Source: a virus
Taxonomy: Duplodnaviria > Heunggongvirae > Uroviricota > Caudoviricetes
Reading direction: 5' to 3' (one strand)
DNA: 15,806 nucleotides
Virus record (IMG/VR): IMGVR_UViG_2623620496_000009
The translations under genes and the position numbers were made by a program. Positions 259 to 15,143 of this stretch are shown in pieces. Position 1 is the first letter of the stretch. Each line of letters starts with the position of its first letter. The notes below the pieces were generated by a model, which was not told the origin of the DNA, ran no database searches, and was given only the letters and a program-made list of their open reading frames with translations.

Positions 259-267
259 TCGTCTGAC

Positions 268-300
268 AAGCCCTCGCGTTGAGGGCTTTACTGATTTTTT
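268..300 (+). terminator. Putative intrinsic terminator downstream of grxA
   Basis: Inverted repeat aagccctc / gagggctt (268-275 and 281-288) with a 5-nt loop, followed by a T-run at 295-300. It overlaps the convergent ybjM stop codon. Confidence 0.5.
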
Positions 301-665: not shown

Positions 666-934
666 TCGTTCCTCCTGACACTGCGTCTATCGAACACATT
701 TTTCGCCAGTGTGGCGTTCAGTAAGATAAAGCCGCTTCGCATTCCATGCTAATATAGGCCAACGCAATTCATATAGCCGTTGATACCTAATGTGATTACA
801 CTAGTAAAATATATTGTTACTTTACTATCGTTTAGGTGCGCTGAATGAATCTGCGCCCTGAATTCTGGTAAAAAACATTATCGTAAATTACCATTTCTTT
901 CAACAGCTTACTAGTAAACAAGAAGTTAGCCTCC

Positions 935-2620
935 GTGAATATAAACGTCGCCGAATTGTTAAATGGGAATTACATTTTGTTATTATTTGTGGTCCTCGCG
1001 CTTGGGCTATGTCTCGGAAAGTTACGACTTGGTTCGATCCAACTGGGTAATTCCATTGGCGTTTTAGTCGTATCGCTGTTATTAGGCCAACAACATTTCA
1101 GCATTAACACCGATGCGCTTAATCTTGGCTTTATGCTGTTTATTTTCTGCGTCGGGGTCGAAGCCGGACCGAACTTTTTTTCCATTTTTTTTCGCGATGG
1201 GAAAAATTACCTAATGTTAGCACTGGTGATGGTTGGCAGTGCGCTGGTGATCGCCTTAGGGTTAGGTAAGCTGTTTGGCTGGGATATTGGCCTGACGGCC
1301 GGTATGTTAGCAGGCTCTATGACGTCGACACCGGTTCTGGTCGGTGCTGGCGATACACTGCGTCATTCCGGCATGGAAAGCAGGCAGCTCTCACTGGCAC
1401 TGGATAATCTGAGCCTCGGGTATGCCTTAACCTATTTAATCGGTCTGGTGAGTTTGATTGTTGGTGCGCGTTACTTGCCGAAATTGCAGCATCAGGACTT
1501 ACAGACCAGCGCCCAGCAAATCGCCCGCGAACGTGGCCTGGACACTGATGCCAACCGTAAGGTTTATTTACCGGTGATCCGCGCCTATCGCGTCGGCCCG
1601 GAGCTGGTGGCCTGGACCGACGGCAAAAATCTGCGTGAACTGGGTATTTATCGACAAACCGGCTGCTACATTGAACGTATTCGACGTAACGGGATTCTGG
1701 CAAATCCAGACGGTGATGCCGTGCTACAAATGGGCGATGAAATAGCGTTGGTAGGCTATCCCGACGCCCATGCCCGACTCGATCCCAGCTTCCGTAACGG
1801 TAAAGAAGTTTTCGATCGTGACCTTCTCGACATGCGTATCGTCACTGAAGAAGTGGTCGTTAAAAACCATAACGCTGTAGGTAAACGTCTCGCACAACTG
1901 AAGTTGACCGATCACGGTTGCTTCCTTAACCGCGTCATTCGTAGCCAGATTGAGATGCCGATAGATGACAACGTCGTGCTTAACAAAGGTGACGTTTTAC
2001 AAGTCAGCGGTGATGCCCGTCGCGTAAAAACCATCGCCGATCGCATCGGCTTTATCTCGATTCACAGCCAGGTCACTGACCTGCTGGCATTTTGCGCCTT
2101 CTTTGTTATTGGGCTGATGATCGGGATGATCACCTTCCAGTTCAGCACATTCAGTTTCGGCATGGGGAACGCTGCCGGGTTGTTATTCGCCGGAATTATG
2201 CTGGGCTTTATGCGTGCTAACCACCCGACCTTCGGTTACATTCCGCAAGGTGCATTAAGCATGGTGAAAGAGTTCGGCTTGATGGTGTTTATGGCAGGCG
2301 TTGGTCTGAGCGCCGGTAGCGGTATTAATAACGGCCTGGGCGCGATTGGCGGTCAGATGTTGATTGCCGGATTAATTGTCAGTCTTGTGCCCGTGGTTAT
2401 CTGTTTCTTGTTCGGTGCTTATGTATTGCGAATGAACCGCGCACTGTTGTTCGGCGCAATGATGGGCGCACGCACCTGCGCGCCGGCAATGGAGATCATC
2501 AGTGATACAGCTCGCAGTAACATCCCTGCGCTGGGCTATGCGGGCACCTACGCAATCGCCAACGTCCTGCTGACGCTGGCAGGGACAATCATCGTCATGG
2601 TATGGCCAGGATTAGGATAA
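935..2620 (+). CDS. ybjL: Putative AAE-family transporter YbjL
   Basis: 561-aa ORF with a GTG start at 935. Hydrophobic N- and C-terminal halves flank a soluble central region, and the N-terminus [25 protein letters not shown] is recognised as E. coli YbjL. Confidence 0.9.
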
Positions 2621-2732
2621 AACTGAAGTTGCCCTGAAAATGAAATTTTTTTGCACAACCGCAGAACTTTTCCGCAGGGCATCAGTCTTAATTAATGCCA
2701 CTGCTTTTCTTTGATGTCCCCATTTTGTGGAG

Positions 2733-2775
2733 CCCATCAACCCCGCCATTTCGGTTCAAGGTTGATGGGTTTTTT
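2733..2775 (+). terminator. Rho-independent terminator-like hairpin in the ybjL / prophage-end spacer
   Basis: Perfect 10-bp inverted repeat cccatcaacc (2733-2742) / ggttgatggg (2760-2769) with a 17-nt loop, immediately followed by tttttt (2770-2775). Confidence 0.55.
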
Positions 2776-2855
2776 GTTGCCTAAAATTTATTCTATTTAA
2801 AATCATGAGGTTAGAAGCACTGTTTTTTAACGATGGCGACAAAATGGCGGCAGCG

Positions 2856-3074
2856 TCAAAGAGAGAGCGCCACCTGTCCTGATTTCATTGGATGCGGCTG
2901 AACCGGATTTGACTCTTTTGGCGTTGCAATCGAACGAACAAAAGTTTCATGGGTAACAAAAGTATGGCTGCAGTTAATATTCTGGCACTGGTTGTAACGC
3001 TCTTTGGTCAATGAAGATACCTGAAAACTGCTGCGAGTATGGGCGGCACTTCCACACAGTGGGCAAATCATCAT
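2856..3074 (-). CDS. ogr: Late-gene transcriptional activator Ogr/Delta family (zinc finger)
   Basis: 72-aa product from the ATG at 3072-3074, MMICPLCGSAAH...YNQCQNINCSHTF, with the Cys-X2-Cys ... Cys-X4-Cys arrangement and strong resemblance to P2 Ogr. The six-frame ORF extends to a GTG at 3107, but the ATG is preceded by a GGGGAG Shine-Dalgarno-like sequence. Confidence 0.85.
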   Translation of the reverse strand: MMICPLCGSAAHTRSSFQVSSLTKERYNQCQNINCSHTFVTHETFVRSIATPKESNPVQPHPMKSGQVALSL

Positions 3075-3111
3075 TTTTCGAGTTCTCCCCATTTTTGCTA
3101 AATTCACAATA

Positions 3112-3139
3112 ATGATACCGCATTATTCCATTTTGCAAA
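3112..3139 (-). promoter_or_regulatory. Candidate sigma70 promoter for ogr
   Basis: On the minus strand, TTTGCA (forward 3134-3139), a 16-bp spacer, then TATCAT (forward 3112-3117), about 35 nt upstream of the ogr ATG. Confidence 0.4.
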
Positions 3140-3164
3140 CTTAAAAGTTCTCCATTGCGAAGAA

Positions 3165-4265
3165 TCATTCCATTTCGAAATCATCAATCCTCACTTCAAG
3201 CTCCAGACTGGTCGTAAAACCGTTATCCGGGCTGACGGTATGCGTCAGAGTCGTAATGGTCCATTCCGCATCATCTATCGGCTGTTTAAAGCCACTGACT
3301 TTCACTGGCATTTCCGTGTAGAGATCTGCCCGACCTTCCGCCAGTTGTAGCGAGAATGACGCAACGCCGCGTTGCAGGCGTTCCCACTGCATTTTCGCCG
3401 CTCGTTCGGCGTTGCTCCGGTTGGCATAAGTGCGATTAAGTACCAGCACGTTTTCATCCGTACCCACCAGGTAATCGCCCTGCTTCGCTTCCGGCTCTTT
3501 CTTCTGCTTCTTAGTCCTGCGCTTACGCTTCACCGTGGTGCTTTCTTTCTTCGAGGGTTCGCGAGTATGCAACCAGCTGGCAATTACGCCCGTGTAAGCT
3601 CCGCGATCTGCCAGGGTAAAGCGGTGACTGTCGCCGTCCTTACGTGTGATAGTGATCACCGGCAGTGGTTTACCGCTGGCACTTTTACCCTGTCCCTGTC
3701 GGATGAATAACAGATTGCCATTTTTCACTGACGCGATAGCACCGTACTGGCGCGCCAGCCGCATCAGAAAACTGCCGTCACTCTCATTAGTCTGGTCTAT
3801 ATGTTCCACGGGCTTATCCGACAGGTCATTACCCAGTGCCATCTTCAGCTTGTGACGCGCGGCTATTTCCTTGACCACTTCCCCGACAGTGGTCTTGTGC
3901 CACGACTTTTCACGGCGGGTATTCAGCGTTTCACGAAAATCAGCACTTCGCGCCCGGATAGTCAGGCGGTCCGGTGCGCCAGTGTGTTCAATCTCGTCCA
4001 CCGTGAATGCCCCTTTCGGGAAAAGCGGCTGCCCCTTCCAGCCCAGCGCCAGCGTAATGACCGCACCACGGCGCGGCAGCGCTATTTTTCCATCGGCGTC
4101 GTCCAGCTCCAGATCAAGCTGGTCCGCTTCAAAGCCCCGGTTATCCGTCAGCGTCAGCCTCATCAGGCGGTTATCCAGCACAGTGGTGATATCCCTGCCC
4201 TCAATACTGATGCTGAATGCGGGAGTTTTGTTGCCTTTGTTAAGCAGTTCAGAGCTGAAATTCAC
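3165..4265 (-). CDS. D: Tail protein D (late control gene D family)
   Basis: 366-aa ORF recognised as a P2 gpD homolog. Its start overlaps the U stop by 4 bp. Confidence 0.9.
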   Translation of the reverse strand: MNFSSELLNKGNKTPAFSISIEGRDITTVLDNRLMRLTLTDNRGFEADQLDLELDDADGKIALPRRGAVITLALGWKGQPLFPKGAFTVDEIEHTGAPDRLTIRARSADFRETLNTRREKSWHKTTVGEVVKEIAARHKLKMALGNDLSDKPVEHIDQTNESDGSFLMRLARQYGAIASVKNGNLLFIRQGQGKSASGKPLPVITITRKDGDSHRFTLADRGAYTGVIASWLHTREPSKKESTTVKRKRRTKKQKKEPEAKQGDYLVGTDENVLVLNRTYANRSNAERAAKMQWERLQRGVASFSLQLAEGRADLYTEMPVKVSGFKQPIDDAEWTITTLTHTVSPDNGFTTSLELEVRIDDFEME

Positions 4266-4747
4266 GACAGCAGCCCTCCCACCGTTTTACTGATATCACT
4301 TAAGGCAGATGTTGCCGTGTCCTGCAGATTATTCAGTTGCGTACTGAGATCACCGAACATATCGGACAGGGATTCATCCACCCGTTTGAGCGACAGGGTG
4401 AACTCAATCCGCCGCGGCATACCGTCGCGGAAAAACTCCGTTTTAGTCAGATTCAGTCCCTCAATCACATACATGCCGTAAATCGTGCCGCTGCCTTCAA
4501 TCAGGGGCCATGCTTTTCCCTGTTCTGCCATCTGCTCCAGAGCCAGCAACGACAGCCTGCCGCCCGTTATCTCCGGCATAAGAACACCAGAAAGCGTCAG
4601 CATGTCGTTGTCCGGTCCCAGAAACTGCGTGGACGGACGACGGTTTACCCGGCTGTTTGCCGCATGTCGCCAGCTGCGTTGATACTGCAGTTCCTGATAC
4701 GGAACGGTGCGCAGCATAAACACGTACAATCCCAGCACCATCATCAT
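4262..4747 (-). CDS. U: Tail protein U (tail terminator)
   Basis: 161-aa ORF, P2 gpU-like in size and position. Its start overlaps the T stop by 4 bp. Confidence 0.85.
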   Translation of the reverse strand: MMMVLGLYVFMLRTVPYQELQYQRSWRHAANSRVNRRPSTQFLGPDNDMLTLSGVLMPEITGGRLSLLALEQMAEQGKAWPLIEGSGTIYGMYVIEGLNLTKTEFFRDGMPRRIEFTLSLKRVDESLSDMFGDLSTQLNNLQDTATSALSDISKTVGGLLS

Positions 4748-7700
4748 GCGTCGTATCCCCCCTGATCGCTGTAGTTACTCCTGGCTTTTGCCTTCAGCCT
4801 GCGTTCACGTTCATCAAGCTGGCGTGCCACCTCCCGCGCAATATCCTGCGCACTTTGTCCTGGCTGCATCTGAATGATGATCTGCGTCGGTGCCTCAATC
4901 CTGTAAACGGGCGGCACAGTGGCTGCACGACTCACCATCGCTTCGCCGCCTTTCGCGGGAAGTGCCAAAGGATGCAACGGTGGAAGCTCTGCAGGCGCGG
5001 CAGCAACGCCCATCATTCCGGCAACAACGGCAGCCAGTGCAGCTGTATTTCTCCGGCTGGTCACATTTGCCGGGCCGTTAACAATTTCCGGCCCGTTTTC
5101 ACCGACGATGCCAAACTGCCCGCGCGGGATATAGCCGCCGCTGTCATACATCCCCGCAAAGCCATATCCCCATGACGGAAAACCACCCGATGGCATCATC
5201 ACTTTACCGTTTGTATTCACCGTCGCAGGTTGCTGACGCGTCACACTTTCCGGTAGTTTCGCCTTTGCGGCCTCTTTACTGACAACGCCGAGTTTCTCCA
5301 GCAACCAGGAAACGCCGGATTTCAGGGAGTCCAGCGGATGCATGACCATATTCAGCCCTTCCGCCAGTGCCTCCCCGAATCGCCGCCCCATTGCCGCTGC
5401 ACTCTGCAGTTCGGCAGAGGTTGACTTAACGGGCGTCAGCAGATCAGTAAACCAGCCCCACAGCGCCTGTACTTTGTCGCCAATCCACTGGAACACGGGC
5501 TTAAGCGGTTCGAATGCTGCACTGACGGGACCTGCCGCCGCTTTGAATCCTTCCACCACGCCACCAAGAAATGCGGTGATGGGTTGCCAGTATTTCCAGA
5601 CAACCAGCGCCACGCCCGCCAGTGCAGTAACCACAAGACCTATCGGACTGAGCAGAGCACCTAACAGACCAGATACGGCATACAGGGCAACGCGCAGCAT
5701 CGCCAGTGGACCAGATGCCAGTACTCGCAGCACCGTGCCTGCGGCGGCCAGTCCACCACGCAGTACCGCCAGAGGATTCATAAACATCACAGCAACAGCA
5801 CGTAAACCGGATAATCCAGACCGCAAAAGTGCAACCGGCGCACCTGCTACAGTTTTCAGGACATTTCCCGTCAGTGATGCCGTGCGGCGCAAAGACGACA
5901 ACGGCGCAGTAAGTAAACCCGCAGCGTGGCCCGATGAAGCAAGCCCGCGTCGCAGCAGTGCCAGTGGTGCGCCAGCCAGCCAGGACAACGCGCTGCTGGT
6001 TCGAGTTACTGCTGCCGTAACGGAAGGTAACGTTTTGATACCCAGCACAGAGAACCCCAGACGGATCACTGCCAGCGGCCCCAGCACTGCAGCTAACACC
6101 ACCGCTAAGGTGCCGAGGCCCACGGTAACCGCAGCCACAACAGCCGCCGCTTTCATCAGTGTGCCCGTCAGTTCCGGGTTAGCTTCCACCCAGCGACGCA
6201 ACGCCCCCGTGACGCTTTTCACCGTGAACAGAATATCCATCAGCGGCTGGCGCAGCGTTTCGCCCAGGCTGCTGAAGGTGTTCTGCGCTCCGGTTTTGAC
6301 CAGCAACCACTGAGCAGAAAGTGAGTCTTTGTTGATGTCGGATTCTTTCTGCATGGAGCCGAGCGCATCATTGCCCGCTGTCAGTTTTAGCTGGCGCTGC
6401 AGTTCCGGCAGGTTGTTTGCCAGTTTCGCCGCGTCATCGCCAAACTCTTTACCAAACAACATGGTCATGGCAGACAGGCGCTTATCCTGCGGCAGCGCGT
6501 TCACCTTCTCCAGCACGCGCTGGATGGTTCCCATCGCATCCTTCGTCATCTGCTTTTCAATCACTTCAGGATTGAGTTTCAGCAGATTCATCCCTTCAAA
6601 GAAACTCTTGCTCTGCATGGTGGCAATGGACAATTCACGCACCATCGCGTTTGCTGCACTGGCTGCAACCTCTGGCGCAGCGCCCAGTGTCAGGAAGGTG
6701 GAACCCAGCGCCGCCGCTTTACGATAATCCAGACGATCAGCCACACCGCCCAGGCGTTGCATGACATCAATGATGTCTGCCCCTTTCGACATGGCGTTAT
6801 CATCCAGATAGTTCAGCGCATCACCGAGCTGTTCAATATTGCGGGTAGGGATTTTGTAGAGCTGGGCGATTTTCCCCAGACTTTCTGACAGTTCATCCGC
6901 TGGCAGCTCAAAGGCTGTTGCCGCCTTTGCTGCCGTACTGGCGAAGGCCAGCAGGTCACGTTTCTGGTCCTCCCAGCTGTCGTCAGGGTTTGCAACGTTC
7001 ATACGCGCACCACCTTCAACCAGTGCAGCGAAGTCCACCGCACCGTTTTCCATCGGCAACTGTTCGCTGGCAGCTTTGATGGCATCCTGCATTTCATAAA
7101 AACGTGCAGTGCGGTTGCCATTATCGTCACGCAGACCATTGACCTGCTTTGCCACACCTTTCATGGCATCTTCCATGCTGGTATAGCTTTTTACTGCCGC
7201 CATCACTGGCGTCCCCATTGCCAGCCCTGCCGCCGTGGTGGTGGCTCCGGTTCCTGCGATGCGATCGCGCACCTCCAGCGAACGGGCATAACTGGCACGC
7301 GCTGCATTCATCCTGCGCTGAGCTTCCCCCAGTCGCTTCAGCCGCGCCTCCTGTTTCGACAGTTCCTGGTTATAACGTGATGTTTCACGGGCTAAACGGG
7401 CAGTTGCTCCCGCATCATCTTTCGCAGAAATTCCCGCCCGGTACAGTTCTGCACGCACAAGCGCCGTTTGCTTCTGCAAATATTTTTGTTGTTCTTCCAG
7501 GCGTTGGACTGCCAGTGTTTGCCGACCTAAAGCCACAAGGTGCCGTTGTGATGGTTGTTCCATCGCTTCCAGCTCAGAACTAAGCAAATTTGCCTTCTGT
7601 CTGGCATAGTTCAGCCTGTCGCCTAACTTTTTGTTATCGGCCTGCAGCTTGCGAAATTTTTCCAGGCTGTTACCCGCCTGATTGAGTTGCTTTAATGCGT

Positions 7701-7821
7701 CACGGGAGTTTCTGATTGCGCCAGCCAGCTCTTTCGAACTGGCCTGTGCAGCACGGAATGGGCGGGTGAGTTTGTCAACCGCATTAAGAATGACCTGCAG
7801 GCGCAGGTTATTATCACTCAT
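4744..7821 (-). CDS. T: Tail tape measure protein
   Basis: 1025-aa ORF with a coiled-coil-like N-terminal region, a central Ala/Leu/Gly-rich hydrophobic repeat region (PLAxLRxGL-like motifs) and a C-terminal domain; P2 gpT-like position after E/E'. Confidence 0.9.
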   Translation of the reverse strand: MSDNNLRLQVILNAVDKLTRPFRAAQASSKELAGAIRNSRDALKQLNQAGNSLEKFRKLQADNKKLGDRLNYARQKANLLSSELEAMEQPSQRHLVALGRQTLAVQRLEEQQKYLQKQTALVRAELYRAGISAKDDAGATARLARETSRYNQELSKQEARLKRLGEAQRRMNAARASYARSLEVRDRIAGTGATTTAAGLAMGTPVMAAVKSYTSMEDAMKGVAKQVNGLRDDNGNRTARFYEMQDAIKAASEQLPMENGAVDFAALVEGGARMNVANPDDSWEDQKRDLLAFASTAAKAATAFELPADELSESLGKIAQLYKIPTRNIEQLGDALNYLDDNAMSKGADIIDVMQRLGGVADRLDYRKAAALGSTFLTLGAAPEVAASAANAMVRELSIATMQSKSFFEGMNLLKLNPEVIEKQMTKDAMGTIQRVLEKVNALPQDKRLSAMTMLFGKEFGDDAAKLANNLPELQRQLKLTAGNDALGSMQKESDINKDSLSAQWLLVKTGAQNTFSSLGETLRQPLMDILFTVKSVTGALRRWVEANPELTGTLMKAAAVVAAVTVGLGTLAVVLAAVLGPLAVIRLGFSVLGIKTLPSVTAAVTRTSSALSWLAGAPLALLRRGLASSGHAAGLLTAPLSSLRRTASLTGNVLKTVAGAPVALLRSGLSGLRAVAVMFMNPLAVLRGGLAAAGTVLRVLASGPLAMLRVALYAVSGLLGALLSPIGLVVTALAGVALVVWKYWQPITAFLGGVVEGFKAAAGPVSAAFEPLKPVFQWIGDKVQALWGWFTDLLTPVKSTSAELQSAAAMGRRFGEALAEGLNMVMHPLDSLKSGVSWLLEKLGVVSKEAAKAKLPESVTRQQPATVNTNGKVMMPSGGFPSWGYGFAGMYDSGGYIPRGQFGIVGENGPEIVNGPANVTSRRNTAALAAVVAGMMGVAAAPAELPPLHPLALPAKGGEAMVSRAATVPPVYRIEAPTQIIIQMQPGQSAQDIAREVARQLDERERRLKAKARSNYSDQGGYDA

Positions 7822-8250
7822 CGTTAGCCCCGCTTCTCTGAATCGCTTTATACCGCCATTCCAGCACTTCGGTCAGCGGCATAACGTCAGTAACGGATGG
7901 CGGCCAGTGAAAGATGGTGGCGATATCAGCCACCAGATCGTCAACCGTCAGGCTGTCGGTAAACCGGCAAGCACCGACTTCTTCAACAAAAAAGTGACAA
8001 CCTCAACCGACATAGCGGTGAGATCTGCCGGGTCCATCTCTGCAATTTCCTGTGCAGTCAGTGCCGGGCTGGAGATGCGGGGGATCACGGTCATCATCGC
8101 GTTCACATCCATATCCATAATGGCCTGCAGGCGTGTACCGCGCAGTGCACCAGACTGCGGTTTACGCAGCACAATTTCGGTGATTTCCGTTTTACCGCGC
8201 TTGATAGGGGTATCCAGTTGAATAGTCTTTTCAGTCTGCTTATCGCTCAT
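7814..8250 (-). CDS. E+E': E+E' tail assembly chaperone made by a programmed -1 frameshift (about 145 aa)
   Basis: Slippery site TTTTTTG on the minus strand (forward 7987-7993). The -1 frame stays open for about 57 codons (VEEVGACRFTDS...AIQRSGANDE) to a TGA at 7814-7816 that overlaps the T start codon (ATGAGTGA). The predicted size is close to the P2 E+E' product as recalled. Confidence 0.6.
7948..8250 (-). CDS. E: Tail assembly chaperone E
   Basis: 100-aa ORF directly upstream of T, with a T6G slippery heptamer 12 codons before its stop; P2 gpE-like. Confidence 0.85.
   Translation of the reverse strand: MSDKQTEKTIQLDTPIKRGKTEITEIVLRKPQSGALRGTRLQAIMDMDVNAMMTVIPRISSPALTAQEIAEMDPADLTAMSVEVVTFLLKKSVLAGLPTA
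7987..7993 (-). other. Programmed -1 ribosomal frameshift slippery heptamer (U UUU UUG)
   Basis: Forward caaaaaa is TTTTTTG on the coding strand, aligned X XXY YYZ in the E reading frame. Confidence 0.6.
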
Positions 8251-8304
8251 TTTGTTGTCCTGTAAATTGGGTTCTGGCGCGGAATCCCGCGCCGTTCAGA
8301 TACA

Positions 8305-8820
8305 TCAGAGGCCGAGGGCGTTGCGGTGCGCTTCCATCAGGTCCACACCGTCCACAATTTCCACCATGTTGATAAGGTCCACTTCATAGAGCACCTCACC
8401 ATTGATAGTCAGCTTCGCGTAGCTGTTGGTACTGGTCACTTTGGTGGTGTTGCTTTCGCCCGTCTTCCACTCACCGGAATCCACTTCTTTGTGACGTCCG
8501 CGCACCACAAGCTCCACGGCCTGCACTTCCCCGGTATCGTCACGCTGGATAGAGCCGGTAAAGCGCAACTGGATACCATCCACCGTGGCTTTGCCCATCT
8601 GCTTAAACAGCAGCAGTTCAGTACCACCAATGGAAAATTCCGTATCCAGTGCGCCGTCATCCAGCCCCAGATCAACATCCACTGCACCCGGCATTCCGCC
8701 GCCGCGATACTTCTCATATTTGCGGGTGAATTTCGGCAGCGTCAGCGACTCAACGATCCCCTGCCAGTTGTTCCCGTCATTAAACAGGTTCAGGTGTTTT
8801 AATTTGCGTGGTAAAGCCAT
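8305..8820 (-). CDS. FII: Tail tube protein FII
   Basis: 171-aa ORF recognised as a P2 gpFII homolog, 9 bp downstream of FI. Confidence 0.9.
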   Translation of the reverse strand: MALPRKLKHLNLFNDGNNWQGIVESLTLPKFTRKYEKYRGGGMPGAVDVDLGLDDGALDTEFSIGGTELLLFKQMGKATVDGIQLRFTGSIQRDDTGEVQAVELVVRGRHKEVDSGEWKTGESNTTKVTSTNSYAKLTINGEVLYEVDLINMVEIVDGVDLMEAHRNALGL

Positions 8821-8829
8821 GTTGTCCCC

Positions 8830-10002
8830 TTACGCGCTGACCTGGCTGGAGAAATTCACCAGGTACTGATCGGTGATGCGCTGACGCAGCATCAGGTTTT
8901 CAAGTGGCGGCACTGGTGTGTAGTCGTAGTCGATGGTGAGTTTTCCAGCTTTCAGAGTGTCTTTGTCGTTCACCGACTCATCCAGCCAGCAATCGCCACC
9001 AATGAGATAGCCCTGACTGATCAGGCTGCGCATTTTGGCGCGGATACCTTCGATAATGTCGCGGGCCAGCGACGGATTCAGCGGTTTGTCGACAGCCCAC
9101 ATTGGCGCTTCTGCCATCGTGTCCATCAGCACCTGCGCCGTGCGGGTGTTGTTTTCGAAGGCAAAGAGTGGGTCATCACTCAGACAGCGGGAACCCCAGA
9201 AGCGAAAGCCGTCTTTGCGGATAAGTGTGGTAACATCGTTCTGGTTAAGCAGTCCCGCATCAGTTGCCGGGTCCTGCAGATCCCAGAACACATCAGCAGA
9301 AATTCCAGTGACACCGTTCACGCCCACGTTGGACAGGCTTTTGTGCCACCCTGTCTGCTCATCAATTTTGGCACGCAGACCAAGCGCACGGGCGGTGGCA
9401 TATGCCGTTGCGTCGGCATTCAGCACCGTGTCCCAACCAGTAAAGTCAGGCCAAATCAGCATCCCTTCACGCTGACTGAAGTTTTCACGGTAAGTGATCG
9501 CCTCCTGCACCGTCTTGCAGCCATACGCTGACAGGTAAGCAAACCCACGCAGGCTTTGCGCCACGCCCAGCAACTCAGTAGCAACGGCTTTATTATCGTG
9601 CCCCGGCACGCCGAGGATGCGCGGTTTAACACCGAGCTGTGACTGGGCAGATAACAGGGCTTTCATACCAGTTTTTTTACCTTCAGCAGTCACTGCGCCG
9701 ATGATATTGGTCGTGGTTTCTTCTTCCGTTTCACCCTGCGGCACACGCACAACAACGGTCACGGGTTTTGCCTGGTCAGCGATGGCATCCAGCGAGCGGG
9801 CCAGCGTACCGGATTCACCCGCCTTACCGCTGGCAGTAAGCACATCAGTGATTAGCACGGGTTTATTAAGAGGGAACATTTTTGCATCGGCATCATCGCC
9901 CGTGCAGACCATGCCCACGATGGCGGTGCTCACCGTGGTAATGGATCGAGTGCCTTCGTTGACTTCAACAACGCGCACTCCGTGGTGGTAATCCTGAGCC
10001 AT
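8830..10002 (-). CDS. FI: Contractile tail sheath protein FI
   Basis: 390-aa ORF with strong resemblance to P2 gpFI ([19 protein letters not shown]..., [13 protein letters not shown]). An AGGAGG Shine-Dalgarno sequence lies 9 nt upstream of the ATG. Confidence 0.95.
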
Positions 10003-10078
10003 AGTGGCGAACCTCCTGATTGGATTAGGCTTCGCCCTATGTTGAAGTGATTGTGTCTGACAAGCAGCTAAGCGCAGT

Positions 10079-10096
10079 TGTACCGTTATTCACACA
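10079..10096 (-). promoter_or_regulatory. Candidate Ogr-type activator site (TGT-N12-ACA) of a PF-like late promoter
   Basis: TGTaccgttattcacACA lies in the 106-bp spacer between the tail fibre assembly gene and FI, centred about 85 bp upstream of the FI ATG. No convincing -10 hexamer was found by eye. Confidence 0.35.
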
Positions 10097-10108
10097 AAAT
10101 GACGGTAT

Positions 10109-10522
10109 TTATCTGCTTGCAGGGAAAACAGGCCAAATAATATCAGGTGCGGTGCTGGTATCTGTTGCCGTCACAGCCTCGATATAATCCAGCACAACGT
10201 TAAGTCGGGTAGTTTCCTCTTGCGTCAGTTTGCGCCCGGCCTGCAGCTTTAACTGAATCACGCTGATATTGACCATTGCTGCGTCTATCAACGACTGTTT
10301 TTTCTGTTCAGCGTCAGCTACCAGTTCATCATGAGAACGTTCCGGAGTGGGTGGTGCAGTAAATACCCCGTCTGAATACGCCCAGCCGATTCCGGGCTGC
10401 TCACTGATATCAGAAATATTAATGAGCTGCAGATTATCCGGCACAGTGAATTCATCCTCGCCATCCCAGACAATGACATTCACAACCATCCCATTTTCAA
10501 TAACTGCATATGACGCATTCAT
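10109..10522 (-). CDS. G: Tail fibre assembly protein (Caudovirales Tfa family), in the P2 G position
   Basis: 137-aa product from the ATG at 10520-10522, preceded by GAGGAG. The C-terminus ...DTSTAPDIIWPVFP is the characteristic Tfa ending. The start overlaps the H stop (TAATG). The six-frame ORF extends 8 codons further to a TTG. Confidence 0.85.
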   Translation of the reverse strand: MNASYAVIENGMVVNVIVWDGEDEFTVPDNLQLINISDISEQPGIGWAYSDGVFTAPPTPERSHDELVADAEQKKQSLIDAAMVNISVIQLKLQAGRKLTQEETTRLNVVLDYIEAVTATDTSTAPDIIWPVFPASR

Positions 10523-12441
10523 TATGCAAACTCCTCGATAATACAAACCCCATCAGCACCTTTCCCGCCCGTCATACTGGTTCCGCTATAACCTGCATCG
10601 TATGCACCACCTCCGCCTGAACCAAATGCCCTGCCTCTAACGCCACCGCCAGCGCCTGCGCGTCCACCGCCACCCCAGTACGATGTTCCGCCTTCACCGC
10701 TGACGCCGATATTTCCGGACTGACCGTCGCCTCCATCTCCACCAGTGATGCGGATATCGCCAGTACTCGGCACACCTCCGTTACCGCCGTTTGTGTTTGT
10801 AACACCCACTTTCCCGCCACCTTCGCCACCAGGAGCAATTAACGATGCGAATACGCTATTCCCGCCCCTGGTGCCGTTCGTTGCACTAACACCACCGGCC
10901 CCACCTGCGCCGATAGTGACTGGATAACTATTCTGTGTCGGGGTCATTATTGAAATTATTGTTCCACCGGCCCCACCGCCAGCACCGAAAAACGTTTCAT
11001 TATTGGATGTAGCCTTGCAGCCGCCCCCTCCGCCACCGCCGCCCGTTATTGTGACCCTGATCCGTTTTGTTTCTGGTGATGGGGTATACGTACCTGATGA
11101 CGCGAAAGCCCGGGTACTCAGCCGGCGTCCCACGTATCCGCTTGTATCTCCCAAACCAAGATAACGAATAACCTCCTGTTTGCTTGTTTTAGCCAGAATA
11201 TCCCGTCCAACATTAGTCAGGGTTGTCAGGCTGGCTGTATCATTCCCCGTAAAATACGGTAGTTTGTCTGCCGCAGTGGCAAGGCCTGCCAGTGCGGTCA
11301 GTGTGGCGTCGGCAGGTTGTTTTCCATTGGCAAGGTCATATACAGCCTTCACAGCTTTTGGTGTGGCAGCCTGCGTTTCTGACGTGCTGTTAGTGGCGCT
11401 GCTGAGTTGCACGGTACCTTTTACCGTCAGTGAAGCTGCAGGCACATCCGTTATCTGGCTCCACGGGTGCGTGTGACTGACAGGTGCCTTACCTGCTGCA
11501 AGGTCATATGCCGCCTTCACTGCCTTTGGTGTGGCAGCCTGCGTTTCTGACGTGCTGTTAGTGGCGCTGCTGAGTTGCACGGTGCCTTTTACCGTCAGTG
11601 AAGCTGCAGGCACATCCGTTATCTGATTCCACGGGTGTGTGTGACTGACAGGTGCCTTACCTGCTGCAAGGTCATATACAGCCTTCACTGCCTTTGGAGT
11701 GGCAGCCTGCGTTTCTGATGTGCTGTTAGTGGCGCTGCTGAGTTGCACGGTGCCTTTTACCGTCAGCGAGGCTGCAGGTACACCTGTTATCTGATTCCAC
11801 GGGTGTGTGTGACTGGCGGATGCTTTACCTGCTGCAAGATCATATGCAGCCTTCACAGCCTTCGGTGTTGCGGCCAGTATTTCGGATTCACTGTTGGTCG
11901 CACTGCTTAACTGAGTAAAACCTTTTGCGGTCAGCGAGGCGTCCGGGTGACGTCGTGACTGTTCGTGCTCTGATATTTTGTCATCCACATACTTGCGGGT
12001 TGCCAGCACTACAGCAGGGTCGATTTTCAGGATGATATTGTCCGTACTGCTGGTAATCAGCACCATGCGCACGGTCTGGGTACGCCCACTGCCTTCAGCC
12101 AGTTGCGGCTTATAGCTTTCCGGGCAGTTACCCACGGCAATCAATGCCCCGGACTCATCAAACAAGCCCACTTCACGTATCCACCAACCGCCCTCGTTTT
12201 CAGGGATCACCTGTTCAGCAATAATCTGGCTGCTGTTCTGCGGGTCGATATAAAGCATATTCAGCGCAGCCCGGCGTTTCTCATTTACCAGTGCCGTCTG
12301 CTTTGCGTCCGGCGTTGGCAATACTCCGCCGCCATCGCCCACCGCCATATGGGTAATTTTTAGCGGCACACCGAGCGCGGCGGCGCTGGCAAGTTTCGCC
12401 GCGCCAATATCCGTCAGCAGGGTATAAAATTTTGTGCTCAT
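10522..12441 (-). CDS. H: Tail fibre protein (P2 gpH-like N-terminus, Phage_fiber_2-type repeats, Gly-rich C-terminal domain)
   Basis: 639-aa ORF. The N-terminal ~165 aa resemble the P2 H baseplate-attachment region. It is followed by four tandem ~56-aa repeats (LSSATNSTSETQAATPKAVKA...HTHPWNQIT) and a glycine-rich C-terminal third. Confidence 0.9.
   Translation of the reverse strand: MSTKFYTLLTDIGAAKLASAAALGVPLKITHMAVGDGGGVLPTPDAKQTALVNEKRRAALNMLYIDPQNSSQIIAEQVIPENEGGWWIREVGLFDESGALIAVGNCPESYKPQLAEGSGRTQTVRMVLITSSTDNIILKIDPAVVLATRKYVDDKISEHEQSRRHPDASLTAKGFTQLSSATNSESEILAATPKAVKAAYDLAAGKASASHTHPWNQITGVPAASLTVKGTVQLSSATNSTSETQAATPKAVKAVYDLAAGKAPVSHTHPWNQITDVPAASLTVKGTVQLSSATNSTSETQAATPKAVKAAYDLAAGKAPVSHTHPWSQITDVPAASLTVKGTVQLSSATNSTSETQAATPKAVKAVYDLANGKQPADATLTALAGLATAADKLPYFTGNDTASLTTLTNVGRDILAKTSKQEVIRYLGLGDTSGYVGRRLSTRAFASSGTYTPSPETKRIRVTITGGGGGGGGCKATSNNETFFGAGGGAGGTIISIMTPTQNSYPVTIGAGGAGGVSATNGTRGGNSVFASLIAPGGEGGGKVGVTNTNGGNGGVPSTGDIRITGGDGGDGQSGNIGVSGEGGTSYWGGGGRAGAGGGVRGRAFGSGGGGAYDAGYSGTSMTGGKGADGVCIIEEFA
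11326..11940 (-). repeat. Tandem 168-bp in-frame coding repeats in the tail fibre gene (three full copies plus one partial)
   Basis: Near-identical DNA units, e.g. gccttcac[a/t]gc[t/c]tttgg[t/a]gtggcagcctgcgtttctga[c/t]gtgctgttagtggcgctgctgagttgcacggt, recurring about every 168 bp. Confidence 0.85.
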
Positions 12442-13043
12442 GGATTCACTCTCATTGTGTCAATAACATGGACCGCCCCGCCTTCATGCGCGGTGCCACC
12501 GGAAATAATCGTTTCGTTGATATACGGATAGATCGTGATTTCTTCGCCAAGATAGCTGGCGGCTCCCACCCAATGCGGGCCGCTGGTCTGCAGATTGATG
12601 GACATGCCGATCATGTGGCGGCTACATGGTTTGGCATCGCTTATCAGTCGCTCAAGTTCCAGATAGGTATCTTCAGTGATACCCTGGTCCTGCACGCCGA
12701 TATCCAGGCGAAACGTGCCCGGTGCCTCTCCGGTCTGCCACCACTCAATAATGCGGATCAGAAAGCCGAACGGCTCCACCACCCGCCGCACGGCACTGGT
12801 GGTCCCTTTATGCTGATGAATATAAAAAGCATCCTTCACCACCTGGCGCTTGACGCTTTCTGTCCAGCCCTCGTCCCAGCGATCTACAGAGAACGCCCAG
12901 GCGAGATAAGGCAGGAAACTGACCGGACAGGTTGCCGGATTCCACAAGTCACGAAGCGGCACCTGCAGATCAGAAATCCCGCTGCAGGTTTGCGCCAGTC
13001 GGCGCTCCAGTGGTGTTGAACCCGGTGGCAGCAGACTATTCAT
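12438..13043 (-). CDS. I: Baseplate protein I
   Basis: 201-aa ORF recognised as a P2 gpI homolog (conserved LWNPATCP...LPYLAWAFSVDRWDE). Its start overlaps the J stop by 8 bp. Confidence 0.85.
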   Translation of the reverse strand: MNSLLPPGSTPLERRLAQTCSGISDLQVPLRDLWNPATCPVSFLPYLAWAFSVDRWDEGWTESVKRQVVKDAFYIHQHKGTTSAVRRVVEPFGFLIRIIEWWQTGEAPGTFRLDIGVQDQGITEDTYLELERLISDAKPCSRHMIGMSINLQTSGPHWVGAASYLGEEITIYPYINETIISGGTAHEGGAVHVIDTMRVNP

Positions 13044-13944
13044 CCGTTCCTCCGTTGGTTACGCTCCACTGCGTACATGATGCCGCCTGTGTTTTGTTCA
13101 GGACCACATCCTCCAGAGGAGAAGCCAGCTCCACACGCTGCACACCCTCAACATGCAGGGCGGCAAAGATGGCGCTACGGCGAATATCCCGACCAAGACG
13201 CGTCTGACTGGCGATGTACTTCTGCAGGCTGGCTTTTGCCGCTGCCATTACCGGCTCTGCTTCCGGTCCAGGATAGAGAAAAATGGTGGCTTCCACGCGA
13301 TACGGGATGATTTCTGCGCTGCGAACCGTAAGACGGTCAGCCACCGGGCGGACGTTCTCACTGTTCAGAGCTTTTTCCACCACGTCCAGCAGGTCTTTTT
13401 CTGCAGTTCCGTCGCCTTCGCGGCTAAGGACAGTCAGCACCACCTCTGCAGGTGCCGGGCTGGTTGCACTGGCATCCGCCACCCGACCGTCGGCGCTTCG
13501 GGCATGAAATTCATAAGCTGCAGTTGGCCCCGCAACTGAAAGCCCTTCAAAGGCTGCAGGCACACGCAGGCGTAACGCTTCATCGCTTTCCATCACAGCT
13601 GCAACGGGCGGCACAGCGTCATTATCAGCAGGCGTCACCGTCAGGCGTTTCACGTTGTAGTTGGCAGCGAGCTGGTCAAGATCGCTGCCCATCGCGTAAG
13701 CCACCATCACAGCCTGCGCGGCTTCGTTAATGCGCTGGCGCAGAAGCAACTCACGGTAAGCGTTCTCCTGCAGCAATTTGGTGACGGGTTCAGATTCCAG
13801 TTCCAGCGTGCGGATCACTGCTTCCTGCTCATCTTTCGGATGAAGCGCAACAAATCCGGCCTTGCGTTCGGCAAGCAGCGTCTCAAAGTCCGGCACATCC
13901 ACAATCTGCGGCGCAGGCAACTGCGAAAGGTCAATCACTGCCAT
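13036..13944 (-). CDS. J: Baseplate protein J
   Basis: 302-aa product from the ATG at 13942-13944 (MAVIDLSQLP...), preceded by AGGAG. This matches the P2 gpJ length as recalled. The six-frame ORF extends 13 codons further upstream. Confidence 0.9.
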   Translation of the reverse strand: MAVIDLSQLPAPQIVDVPDFETLLAERKAGFVALHPKDEQEAVIRTLELESEPVTKLLQENAYRELLLRQRINEAAQAVMVAYAMGSDLDQLAANYNVKRLTVTPADNDAVPPVAAVMESDEALRLRVPAAFEGLSVAGPTAAYEFHARSADGRVADASATSPAPAEVVLTVLSREGDGTAEKDLLDVVEKALNSENVRPVADRLTVRSAEIIPYRVEATIFLYPGPEAEPVMAAAKASLQKYIASQTRLGRDIRRSAIFAALHVEGVQRVELASPLEDVVLNKTQAASCTQWSVTNGGTDE

Positions 13945-14290
13945 TCTCTGCTCCTGTTGATACTGAAAGGGACACAGGCACACCGTTATTCCGCCGCCCG
14001 GTCAGCTCCACCACCATTGAACCGTCAAAATTGCTGTTAATAGTGATGGAATCCAGCGTCAGCCGTGGCTCCCAGCGACTCAGTGCCACATACACAGCCG
14101 ACATAACCTGCAGGCGTAACGCCGGATTTTGTGGCTGATCTATCAGTGCCGACAGCAGGGAACCATATTCCCGACGGGCAATGCGGCTACCCTGCGGCGT
14201 CAGCAGAATGTCCCGCACCGACTGGCGCAGATGGTCAATATCAGTAATGGCTTTACCGTTGGTATTGTTCATCCCGCTATAAAGCGTCAT
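13931..14290 (-). CDS. W: Baseplate wedge protein W (GPW/gp25 family)
   Basis: 119-aa ORF, P2 gpW-like. Its ATG overlaps the V stop (ATGA). Confidence 0.85.
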   Translation of the reverse strand: MTLYSGMNNTNGKAITDIDHLRQSVRDILLTPQGSRIARREYGSLLSALIDQPQNPALRLQVMSAVYVALSRWEPRLTLDSITINSNFDGSMVVELTGRRNNGVPVSLSVSTGAENGSD

Positions 14291-14865
14291 ACCGGGCCTC
14301 CGGTTGTGTCGCCGCCTTTCAGGACGCCAGTATGCTGATGCGCATCAACCACGATCCCGTTAGAACTCATTGCTCCGCCACCCTGGGTAACGCCACCATT
14401 GATCACCACTTCGCTGTTAATGCGCGTGCGGTCAGCCTCCAGTACAAACTCACTGGTTTTCATGGTGATGTTGTCAGCGGCCTCAATGACCATTGATTTG
14501 ATGCCCCTGACATACCAGCGCCCGGTGGCGGGTTCATATTCAAACCAGCCACCGTCCGGGTATTCCGTCACGTTGCCGTCCTCAGAGCCTGAAGGTGGCG
14601 GAAACTGGTTTGAGTAGACCGCAGGCAGGGCAAACGCGGTTTCCAGATTGCCGCCAAGGCTGAACAGCACAACCTGCTCACCCACAGACGGTTTCCACCA
14701 GGTGCGCGATTTGCCCGCGCGCAGTGTCAGCCAGTTAATCCAGTTGGTTTCGAGGTCGCCAGTTTTCACCCGACACAGCCAGTTTGCCCTGTCCACTTCG
14801 GTGACTACACCTGTGCGGATCAGGTTGGTGATAAGGCGCATGATTTCGGTTAATTGTGCGTTCAT
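14287..14865 (-). CDS. V: Baseplate spike/hub assembly protein V
   Basis: 192-aa ORF, P2 gpV-like (MNAQLTEIMRLITNLIRTGVVTEVD...). It is the first gene of the V-W-J-I-H-G block. Confidence 0.9.
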   Translation of the reverse strand: MNAQLTEIMRLITNLIRTGVVTEVDRANWLCRVKTGDLETNWINWLTLRAGKSRTWWKPSVGEQVVLFSLGGNLETAFALPAVYSNQFPPPSGSEDGNVTEYPDGGWFEYEPATGRWYVRGIKSMVIEAADNITMKTSEFVLEADRTRINSEVVINGGVTQGGGAMSSNGIVVDAHQHTGVLKGGDTTGGPV

Positions 14866-14911
14866 AGGGAAAGGTTGCCATCAATAGCAAGCAGTAGACA
14901 GCCTTTGTAAT

Positions 14912-14929
14912 TGTATTAGACATAGAACA
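14912..14929 (-). promoter_or_regulatory. Possible Ogr-type dyad (TGT-N12-ACA) upstream of V
   Basis: TGTattagacatagaACA is centred about 55 bp upstream of the V ATG. That spacing is unusual if the dyad sits near -55 from the transcription start, so this may be a chance match. Confidence 0.25.
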
Positions 14930-15085
14930 AATGCCTTTCAATGGTCTGCGTTAGAGCATTAATACGTTGCAAAAGGTCGAATGACGTTGCGCAAGTTAAG
15001 AAGTTCAATGCTCTTAAAAAAGCACTTGAAAGCAACGCCTTTAATTATTAAAAGCCAATTAATTTAGGCGGTTACTATGTTATCT

Positions 15086-15114
15086 TTGACACAAAAGATG
15101 TTTATTGACAATAT
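15086..15114 (+). promoter_or_regulatory. Candidate sigma70 promoter for the DUF262 gene
   Basis: TTGACA (15086-15091), a 17-bp spacer, then CAATAT (15109-15114). A second TTGACA lies at 15105-15110. An AAGGAG Shine-Dalgarno sequence at 15131-15136 sits 7 nt before the ATG. Confidence 0.35.
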
Positions 15115-15143
15115 ATAAGTTCAATCTAACAAGGAGAAAAATT

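What the first reader, a model, noticed from the sequence alone, without database searches (positions are those of the whole stretch)
7814..7993. Conserved E / E+E' programmed -1 frameshift with the E' stop overlapping the tape-measure start
A T6G heptamer sits in the X XXY YYZ register 12 codons before the E stop. The -1 frame then runs for about 57 codons and terminates in ATGAGTGA, where the ATG is the T start codon. This is the arrangement of the P2 E/E+E' chaperone pair (analogous to lambda G/GT) and is readable directly from the DNA. It argues that the tail module is intact rather than decayed.
Basis: partly seen in the sequence, partly recalled or inferred. Interest (0 to 1): 0.5.

Follow-up and report, generated by a model that had tools for sequence, protein, structure and literature searches.

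The report
P2-type tail chaperone −1 frameshift
This is the well-known programmed ribosome slip that lets P2-like phages make two tail-assembly helper proteins (E and the longer E+E′) from one gene; it is present and intact in this E. coli prophage, so the finding is correct but ordinary.

Summary
On the minus strand, gene E (8250..7948, 100 aa) carries T TTT TTG (7993..7987) in X XXY YYZ register, 12 codons before its stop. The −1 frame then runs 57 codons to TGA 7816..7814, inside ATGAGTGA, whose ATG (7821) starts the tape-measure gene T. The 145-aa, 16.1-kDa fusion aligns without gaps across the junction with phage P2 gpE+E′ (49% identity, E=4e-51). Its −1 part carries Pfam PF06528 (P2 GpE). 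In 91 of 91 related loci the E′ domain lies in the −1 frame with an in-register slippery heptamer in the overlap. Codon-position diversity switches from the E frame to the E′ frame at the slip site. The window is a complete-looking P2-like prophage beside ybjL in E. coli. The biology has been published since 2002–2004. Two side results: no conserved downstream hairpin, and a conserved Shine-Dalgarno-like GAGG(T) 7 nt upstream, supported by codon choice. That motif may compensate for U6G, which is a very weak heptamer in E. coli reporters. Verdict: already known, low interest.

The parts
7948..8250 (-). Gene E (zero-frame product, 100 aa, 10.9 kDa): tail assembly chaperone, homologue of P2 gpE
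   Evidence: ORF and translation. Pfam PF10109 Phage_TAC_7 over residues 9-88, E=1e-18. RefSeq name 'phage tail assembly protein'. PHROG 103 'tail', 2e-42.
7987..7993 (-). Slippery heptamer T TTT TTG in X XXY YYZ register (codons ACT TTT TTG): the site of the -1 shift
   Evidence: Same sequence and register as the annotated P2 site. T6N or another XXXYYYZ heptamer is in register in 91/91 loci: T6G 71, T6A 12, T6C 3, T7 3, GGGAAAG 1, CCCTTTC 1.
7814..7987 (-). E' extension: 57 sense codons in the -1 frame plus stop TGA 7816..7814. Joined to E codons 1-88 it gives E+E' (145 aa, 16.1 kDa): join(8250..7987, 7987..7814)
   Evidence: Pfam PF06528 Phage_P2_GpE over fusion residues 107-143, E=2.9e-18. 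PHROG 1756 aligns residues 85-145, i.e. from the slip site. Gap-free alignment with P2 gpE+E' across the junction. Diversity peaks at E'-frame third positions: 0.072/0.030/0.225.
7814..7821 (-). ATGAGTGA junction: the E' stop (TGA) overlaps the T start (ATG) by 8 nt. Probable translational coupling of T to E+E' termination (inferred)
   Evidence: ATGnnTRR junction in 63/91 loci. P2 has ATGAGTAA and lambda GT/H has ATGGCTGA. The T Shine-Dalgarno signal is only moderate at -6.0 kcal/mol.
4744..7821 (-). Gene T, tail tape-measure protein (1025 aa), the presumed client of E and E+E'
   Evidence: Pfam PF10145 PhageMin_Tail, 2e-18. RefSeq 'phage tail tape measure protein'.
8305..8820 (-). Gene FII, tail tube protein, upstream neighbour that fixes the canonical position of the chaperone pair
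   Evidence: Pfam PF04985 Phage_tube, 6e-60.
8000..8004 (-). Shine-Dalgarno-like GAGGT, 6-7 nt 5' of the heptamer: candidate 5' stimulator of the shift (hypothesis)
   Evidence: The anti-SD duplex profile over 91 loci peaks at windows starting -13..-9 (mean to -7.7 kcal/mol; background -1.7, sd 1.5). The window scores -6.8, P2 -11.7, lambda -2.1. The Glu/Lys/Gln codon completing the motif ends in G in 32/39 deduplicated lineages vs 42% elsewhere in E, p=4e-7. The E-frame third position -9 is unusually conserved.
7961..7980 (-). Candidate hairpin AAGUCGGU-GCUU-GCCGGUUU, 6 nt 3' of the heptamer. Not supported as a conserved stimulator
   Evidence: RNAalifold consensus. 99.1% of cells are paired but changes are one-sided only, and shuffles equal the observed value 500/500. 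The alternative helix 7978..7955 has one compensatory pair, 22/500. The window's downstream MFE z-score is -1.2 to -0.9 and distant loci average -0.41.

Best explanation
This is the E/E+E' tail-assembly-chaperone recoding site of a P2-like (Peduoviridae, 4LV2017/Felsduovirus-type) prophage.

**The two products.** Most ribosomes translate E to its stop at 7948 and make the 100-aa chaperone. A minority slip back one nucleotide on T TTT TTG (7993..7987). There the Phe and Leu tRNAs can re-pair with TTT TTT. These ribosomes continue for 57 codons in the -1 frame and make the 145-aa E+E', which shares residues 1-88 with E.

**Presumed function.** This step rests on analogy with lambda G/GT and on P2 genetics; it was not tested here. 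Both proteins bind the tape-measure protein T through the shared E part. The E' domain of the rarer fusion recruits the tail tube or initiator. The slip frequency therefore fixes the E:E+E' ratio needed to build a tail of the right length. Neither protein is expected in the virion.

**Coupling to T (inferred).** The E' stop overlaps the T start (ATGAGTGA), so ribosomes finishing E+E' can probably reinitiate on T.

**Why a weak heptamer may suffice (hypothesis).** U6G is intrinsically weak in E. coli. The conserved Shine-Dalgarno-like GAGG(T) 7 nt upstream may raise the slip rate.
For: **Shown here**
- Exact anatomy.
- E carries PF10109 and the -1 extension carries PF06528. PHROG 1756 aligns from the slip site.
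- Gap-free 49% identity with P2 gpE+E' across the junction, E=4e-51. The P2 GenBank record annotates the join and the 'site of -1 translational frameshift' at the same TTTTTTG.
- tblastn of the fusion hits 425 phage records, 388 of them in two frame-shifted pieces covering >=80%.
- 91/91 complete related loci place E' in the -1 frame with an in-register XXXYYYZ heptamer in the overlap.
- Diversity by codon position is 0.124/0.054/0.379 in the E frame upstream. It is flat and low (0.07-0.11) in the 36-nt dual-coding overlap. It is 0.072/0.030/0.225 in the E' frame after the E stop.
- Canonical position between tube FII and tape measure T.

**From the literature**
- In P2 the -1 shift at TTTTTTG gives E (91 aa) and E+E' (142 aa), and the site is conserved in P2-like phages (PMC3091744, citing Christie 2002 and Xu 2004).
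- The lambda G/GT mechanism is established, and P2-type efficiency is 2-3x lambda's (PMC5009743).
Against: - There is no protein-level evidence for this locus.
- U_UUU_UUG gave only 0.12% (no stimulator) to 0.77% (IS3 stimulator) -1 shifting in E. coli reporters (PMC4066793 Table S3). The heptamer alone therefore does not explain a several-percent shift.
- No significant or covarying downstream structure was found, and Rfam has no match.
- A start-capable GTG (7933) lies in the E' frame. RefSeq models E' as a separate 39-aa protein from it.
Confidence: 0.93

Rival explanations
1. E' is an independent 39-aa protein initiated at GTG 7933, as RefSeq/PGAP and many phage records annotate it ('GpE family phage tail protein'). 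No frameshift is needed.
For: - The annotation of the identical sequence and of relatives.
- The 39-aa product sits on about 1000 contigs in the protein collection.
- 69/91 loci have ATG or GTG at that column, and Val there is GTG in 49/51.
- The Pfam PF06528 model starts exactly at that residue.
Against: - 22/91 loci have ATC/ATT/ATA/GCC/GTT/GTC/TGG/CAG/CAA at that column.
- The upstream Shine-Dalgarno signal is weak (window -3.6, mean -3.7 kcal/mol).
- E'-frame residues upstream of it are conserved: V15 80%, D17 90%. PHROG 1756 aligns from the slip site.
- The -1 frame with an in-register heptamer is universal, which independent initiation would not require.
- The P2 record and literature describe a fusion.
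Confidence: 0.04
2. The fusion arises by transcriptional slippage: RNA polymerase adds one extra U in the T6 run, and standard translation of that mRNA then reads E' in frame.
For: The site is a homopolymeric T run (6 T; 7 T in some relatives), and the protein product would be the same length.
Against: - Efficient bacterial slippage is described for runs of about 9 A/T (PMC5009743).
- Some family members use non-homopolymeric heptamers (G GGA AAG in Mannheimia, C CCT TTC in Kp ST16phi5.4), which fit only tRNA re-pairing.
- The X XXY YYZ register is kept in 91/91 loci.
- The conserved anti-SD-complementary motif upstream points to a ribosomal event.
Confidence: 0.025
3. Chance or decay: a frameshift mutation or sequencing error split one ancestral gene, and the heptamer is coincidental.
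For: None beyond the bare fact of two overlapping frames.
Against: - The same arrangement occurs in 91/91 loci from Gamma-, Beta- and Alphaproteobacteria and their phages, with an E stop downstream of the heptamer in every one.
- 585 complete E. coli genomes carry >=80% of this window; the best of them are 100% identical over bases 1..15725.
- Each frame shows purifying selection in its own segment.
Confidence: 0.005

Closest known systems
Bacteriophage P2 gpE / gpE+E' (Christie et al. 2002; GenBank AF063097)
   Same: - Same heptamer TTTTTTG in the same register, and the same 57-codon -1 extension.
- E' stop overlaps the T start (ATGAGTAA vs ATGAGTGA).
- Same position between FII and T.
- 49% identity without gaps across the junction.
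- An SD-like AAGGTGG lies upstream of the site in P2 as well.
   Different: - E is 100 aa here vs 91 aa in P2, because the zero-frame tail after the slip is longer (12 vs 6 codons).
- T is 1025 aa here; the P2 T gene spans 19850..22297, about 815 aa.
- The SD-like motif is weaker here (GAGGTT, -6.8 vs -11.7 kcal/mol).
- No experimental data exist for this allele, and databases do not join it.
Felsduovirus / 4LV2017-type P2-like phages (Salmonella RE2010, SEN8, SopEPhi; Klebsiella 4LV2017; E. coli p13P477T-2)
   Same: 85-98% nucleotide identity over the E/E' region. Identical heptamer, overlap and ATGAGTGA junction.
   Different: Essentially none. These are the same gene family at close range. 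Their records list 'tail protein E' and 'tail protein E'' as separate CDS.
Lambda gpG / gpGT tail assembly chaperones (Levin 1993; Xu, Hendrix & Duda 2004, 2013, 2014)
   Same: [quoted passage not shown]
- The fusion stop overlaps the tape-measure start in ATGnnTGA.
- The two products have a fixed ratio and are absent from virions (PMC5009743).
   Different: - No sequence similarity, so this is an analogy rather than family membership.
- Lambda uses G GGA AAG, a strong heptamer (0.28/3.8/43% in reporters, against 0.12/0.25/0.77% for U6G).
- Lambda has no SD-like motif upstream (-2.1 kcal/mol).
- Lambda's tail is non-contractile.
E. coli dnaX and IS-element -1 frameshift signals with a 5' Shine-Dalgarno-like stimulator
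   Same: An anti-SD-complementary motif lies a few nucleotides 5' of an X XXY YYZ heptamer.
   Different: - Spacing here is 7 nt from GAGG to the heptamer (8 nt when aligned to the 16S register), against 10 nt in dnaX.
- The range quoted for -1 stimulation is 9-14 nt (PMC5009743), although Sharma et al. searched 6-17 nt.
- There is no downstream hairpin.
- Function is untested.

Membership tests
P2 gpE / gpE+E' tail assembly chaperone pair | Zero-frame product homologous to gpE (Pfam PF10109 Phage_TAC_7) | tested here: met
   E=1e-18, residues 9-88. 44% identity to the P2 E core by tblastn.
P2 gpE / gpE+E' tail assembly chaperone pair | E' domain (Pfam PF06528 Phage_P2_GpE) encoded in the -1 frame relative to E and overlapping its 3' end | tested here: met
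   E=2.9e-18, full-length model. -1 frame confirmed. 56% identity to P2 E'.
P2 gpE / gpE+E' tail assembly chaperone pair | Slippery heptamer (TTTTTTG in P2) in X XXY YYZ register inside the window where both frames are open | tested here: met
   7993..7987, register ACT TTT TTG. The -1 frame opens 5 codons upstream and the E stop is 12 codons downstream.
P2 gpE / gpE+E' tail assembly chaperone pair | Located between the tail tube gene FII and the tape-measure gene T in an FI-FII-E-T-U-D operon | tested here: met
   Pfam hits for sheath, tube, TMP, gpU and gpD in that order. RefSeq annotation agrees.
P2 gpE / gpE+E' tail assembly chaperone pair | E' lacks its own translation initiation signal | tested here: inconclusive
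   There is no start codon between the frame opening and the heptamer. A GTG exists at 7933 with a weak SD signal (-3.6 kcal/mol), and that column is not start-capable in 22/91 relatives.
P2 gpE / gpE+E' tail assembly chaperone pair | A fusion polypeptide is actually made (about 10% in P2) and is essential for tail assembly | not testable with these tools
   Needs western blot or mass spectrometry plus complementation. Only the P2 record and literature support it.
Conserved G/GT-type tail chaperone frameshift of long-tailed phages (Xu, Hendrix & Duda 2004) | Two overlapping ORFs between the major tail (tube) gene and the tape-measure gene, linked by a conserved programmed frameshift that yields a C-terminally extended minor product | tested here: met
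   Lambda comparison.
SD-stimulated -1 frameshift signals (dnaX / IS type) | Anti-SD-complementary motif at a stimulatory distance 5' of the heptamer, conserved beyond coding needs | tested here: inconclusive
   For: the motif is present and conserved and codon choice is biased toward it. Against: 24-31% of synonymous recodings are as strong, and the 7-8 nt spacing is at or below the published 9-14 nt range.
SD-stimulated -1 frameshift signals (dnaX / IS type) | Downstream stem-loop or pseudoknot stimulator | tested here: not met
   No significant folding (z -0.9 to -1.2) and no supported covariation. Distant relatives average z -0.41. This agrees with PMC3091744.

The most novel reading that the evidence does not exclude
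P2-type chaperone genes shift on U_UUU_UUG, a heptamer that is nearly inert in E. coli reporters (0.12-0.77%). They may manage this because a conserved internal Shine-Dalgarno-like element (GAGG/AAGGTG, 6-8 nt upstream) acts as the main stimulator, possibly by pausing the ribosome so that peptidyl-tRNA-Phe slips while the rare Leu codon waits in the A site. That would make this a short-spacer, structure-free class of SD-driven -1 frameshift signal. A still more speculative variant is that the conserved GTG/ATG at 7933 also gives a free 39-aa E' peptide.
Probability: 0.3. Interest if true: 0.35.

Novelty: already known. Interest (0 to 1): 0.15.

Why it matters
Practically, the public annotation of this very common E. 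coli prophage is wrong at this point. At least 80% of the window is present in 585 of 5426 complete E. coli genomes. RefSeq lists a 39-aa 'GpE family' mini-protein, and the real 145-aa E+E' product is missing from protein databases. Proteomics searches and phage or tailocin engineering would therefore miss it.

Biologically it adds nothing new to the G/GT paradigm. It does sharpen one small open question: why this family keeps an intrinsically poor heptamer, and what raises its efficiency.

Tried and rejected
1. **Downstream stimulatory RNA structure.** Two mutually exclusive hairpins (7978..7955 and 7980..7961) were tested on a 29-sequence alignment. One has a single compensatory pair (22/500 shuffles). 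The other has only one-sided changes, indistinguishable from shuffles. MFE z-scores are weak, and distant relatives show nothing consistent. Rejected as a conserved feature.
2. **Rfam scan of 7600..8400.** No match at E<=1.
3. **Solved structures.** No PDB sequence relative of E+E' at E<=1.
4. **Plus-strand ORF 7682..8221 (179 aa), antisense to E/E'.** In the E' segment the variable sites fall on its first codon position. It is therefore not under coding selection (derived).
5. **Promoter/terminator scan of 7600..8900.** Nothing above shuffle expectation.
6. **Christie 2002 full text (PMC135442).** Not held. P2 efficiency and essentiality rest on secondary citations, the GenBank record and my own recollection of the abstract.
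7. **Structure prediction and large protein-database searches.** Not run, because the identification was already unambiguous.

Full report
**1. Observation**

The genes lie on the minus strand.
- E is 8250..7948 (100 aa; MSDK…VVTFLLKKSVLAGLPTA*).
- The heptamer TTTTTTG occupies 7993..7987 with zero-frame codons ACT TTT TTG, i.e. X XXY YYZ. Twelve sense codons follow before TGA 7950..7948.
- From G7987 the −1 frame reads VEEVGACRFTDSLTVDDLVADIATIFHWPPSVTDVMPLTEVLEWRYKAIQRSGANDE (57 codons). It stops at TGA 7816..7814 inside ATGAGTGA, whose ATG (7821) begins the 1025-aa ORF 7821..4744.
- The −1 frame is closed by a stop only five codons upstream of the heptamer.
- The fusion is 145 aa and 16.08 kDa.

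Chance does not explain it.
- This is the only T6G on that strand, against 0.54 expected.
- In-register XXXYYYZ heptamers occur about once per 410 codons in the tail genes.
- With a 6.2% stop frequency in −1 frames, the probability of 57 open codons is about 0.026.
- The −1 peptide also matches a curated protein family (see section 2).

**2. Identity**
- Pfam places PF10109 (Phage_TAC_7, E=1e-18) on E residues 9-88. It places PF06528 (Phage P2 GpE, E=2.9e-18, full model) on fusion residues 107-143, which is the −1 frame.
- The neighbours are sheath FI, tube FII, tape measure T, gpU, gpD and ogr on one side. On the other side are tail-fibre assembly, fibre H, and I, J, W, V.
- The window is E. 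coli chromosome (grxA-ybjM-ybjL) abutting a P2-like prophage. 585 of 5426 complete E. coli genomes carry ≥80% of the window.
- In an identical genome the prophage continues through S, R, lysis, head, terminase and portal genes, with no pseudogene flags in the tail module.
- The nearest phage records are Klebsiella phage 4LV2017 and the Kp48xx series, E. coli p13P477T-2 (98.4%) and Felsduovirus RE2010/SEN8 (~85%).

**3. Comparison with P2**
- tblastn with the fused protein finds 425 phage records. In 388 of them the match covers ≥80% in two pieces, meaning two frames.
- The P2 record AF063097 annotates gpE, gpE+E′ as a two-piece join, and the 'site of −1 translational frameshift' at the same TTTTTTG.
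- The P2 fusion reconstructed from that record is 142 aa. It aligns with the window's fusion at 49% identity over 139 residues with no gap, straight across the junction (VVTFL|VEEVGA vs VVGFL|VAELGA), E=4e-51.

**4. Comparative test**

I analysed 17 diverse phage loci, 73 complete loci from distinct bacterial species (genome-contig scan) and the window.
- In 91/91 the E′ domain is in the −1 frame relative to E.
- In 91/91 an in-register XXXYYYZ heptamer lies where both frames are open: T6G 71, T6A 12, T6C 3, T7 3, G GGA AAG 1, C CCT TTC 1.

In 33 unique sequences of the DNA-alignable clade, per-site diversity by codon position behaves as follows.

| Segment | Frame used | Pos 1 | Pos 2 | Pos 3 |
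|---|---|---|---|---|
| Upstream of the slip site | E | 0.124 | 0.054 | 0.379 |
| 36-nt dual-coding overlap | E | 0.070 | 0.109 | 0.099 |
| After the E stop | E′ | 0.072 | 0.030 | 0.225 |

At the T start the pattern returns to the E phase. Purifying selection therefore changes frame exactly at the heptamer.

**5. Rivals**

(a) *Independent initiation.* RefSeq/PGAP annotates the identical sequence as a 100-aa 'phage tail assembly protein' plus a separate 39-aa 'GpE family phage tail protein' from GTG 7933.
- The exact fusion is absent from a ~15-billion-protein collection. E and the 39-mer each occur on about 1000 contigs.
- Against this model: 22/91 loci lack a start-capable codon at that column. 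The upstream SD signal is weak (−3.6 kcal/mol here). E′-frame residues upstream of it are conserved, and PHROG 1756 aligns from residue 85.

(b) *Transcriptional slippage.* A T6 run is short compared with the ~9-nt runs quoted for bacteria. Non-homopolymeric heptamers in some members fit only tRNA re-pairing.

(c) *Mutation or chance.* Excluded by the conservation.

**6. Mechanism and stimulators**

The literature supports a −1 shift at TTTTTTG in P2 giving E (91 aa) and E+E′ (142 aa), with no downstream hairpin (PMC3091744). It also supports the G/GT chaperone logic, with P2-type efficiency 2-3× lambda's (PMC5009743).

I found no supported downstream structure and no Rfam match.

U_UUU_UUG is one of the weakest heptamers in E. 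coli reporters: 0.118% unstimulated, 0.247% with the IS911 stimulator and 0.765% with the IS3 stimulator. Lambda's G_GGA_AAG gives 0.277, 3.8 and 43% (PMC4066793 Table S3). Context must therefore help.

A Shine-Dalgarno-like motif (GAGGT, 8004..8000) lies 6-7 nt 5′ of the heptamer.
- Across 91 loci the anti-SD duplex energy peaks there, at a mean down to −7.7 kcal/mol against a background of −1.7 (sd 1.5). In the 49 most distant loci, 75% reach ≤ −6.
- The codon that completes the motif ends in G in 32/39 deduplicated lineages, against 42% for the same amino acids elsewhere in E (p=4e-7).
- That third position is far more conserved than neighbouring third positions.
- Lambda has no such motif (−2.1), P2 has a strong one (−11.7) and this window an intermediate one (−6.8).

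Caveats:
- The conserved E/K-V-V/I peptide explains much of the signal, since 24-31% of synonymous recodings are as strong.
- The lineages are not fully independent.
- The spacing (7-8 nt) is at or below the 9-14 nt quoted for −1 stimulation, though within the 6-17 nt range searched by Sharma et al..
- I could not check whether Christie 2002 or Xu 2004 already noted the motif.

**7. E′-stop/T-start overlap**

ATGnnTRR junctions occur in 63/91 loci, and most of the others have starts within a few nucleotides. Lambda GT/H is ATGGCTGA. The T Shine-Dalgarno signal is moderate (−6.0). Translational coupling of T to E+E′ termination is a reasonable inference, but it is untested.

**8. Verdict**

This is a close homologue of a recoding site that was characterised experimentally in P2 and described as conserved in P2-like phages, so it is already known.

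Its practical value is as an annotation correction. The only mildly new lead is the conserved upstream SD-like element paired with an intrinsically weak heptamer.

Noticed in passing
window 7814..7933 (-): RefSeq/PGAP and many phage records annotate E' as a stand-alone 39-aa 'GpE family phage tail protein' starting at GTG 7933. The true 145-aa fusion is absent from a ~15-billion-protein collection, while E and the 39-mer each sit on about 1000 contigs. The Pfam PF06528 N-terminal boundary coincides with that GTG codon (fusion residue 107).
   Followed up: yes
window 8000..8004 (-), and offsets -11..-7 in loci L001-L095: A conserved Shine-Dalgarno-like GAGG(T)/AAGGTG lies 6-8 nt 5' of the slippery heptamer. 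Codon choice is biased toward it (32/39 G-ending vs 42% elsewhere in E). It is absent upstream of lambda's G/GT site.
   Followed up: partly
window 7987..7993 (-): U_UUU_UUG is nearly inert in published E. coli reporter assays (0.12-0.77%), yet it is the family's conserved slip site (71/91 loci) and P2-type efficiency is reported as higher than lambda's. This mismatch is unexplained.
   Followed up: partly
window 7931..7933 (-) and the equivalent column in 91 loci: The residue at PGAP's putative E' start is Val, Met or Ile. When it is Val the codon is GTG in 49/51 loci. This could be relatedness or a hint of occasional internal initiation.
   Followed up: no
window 15144..15806 (+): This is the N-terminal 220 aa of a GmrSD/DUF262-type nuclease gene (RefSeq name; PADLOC NsnA 3e-23, PD-T4-2_A 1e-18). 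It sits on the opposite strand between baseplate gene V and the S/R tail-completion genes, the slot of P2's non-essential orf30, so it is likely anti-phage cargo. The best E. coli matches stop at 15725, so the last 81 bases may be a variant allele.
   Followed up: partly
window 8276..8293 (-): A GC-rich hairpin GGCGCGG-GAUU-CCGCGCC lies in the 54-nt FII-E intergenic spacer (60-nt fold z = -2.5) with no T tract after it. It may be an attenuator or an mRNA processing or stability element that lowers E-T-U-D expression relative to sheath and tube.
   Followed up: no
window 7814..7821 (-); L097 (lambda) 943..950: The frameshift product's stop overlaps the tape-measure start as ATGnnTGA in the P2-like phages (63/91 loci) and also in lambda (ATGGCTGA), which is unrelated in sequence. 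This suggests convergent translational coupling of the tape measure to the minor chaperone form.
   Followed up: partly
window 7682..8221 (+): A 179-aa TTG-start ORF runs antisense to E/E'. In the E' segment the variable sites fall on its first codon position, so it is a non-coding shadow ORF. ENT90's record annotates similar antisense 'hypothetical proteins'.
   Followed up: yes
window 2620..2856: The prophage/chromosome junction lies between ybjL (935..2620, +) and ogr (3107..2856, -). Two TTTTTTG runs on the plus strand (2647, 2770) sit in this spacer. The attachment site was not mapped.
   Followed up: no
window 7793..7808 (-): A palindrome ACCTGC-GCCT-GCAGGT starts 13 nt into gene T. It was flagged as terminator-like by the consensus scan, but at a rate no higher than in shuffles.
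   Followed up: no
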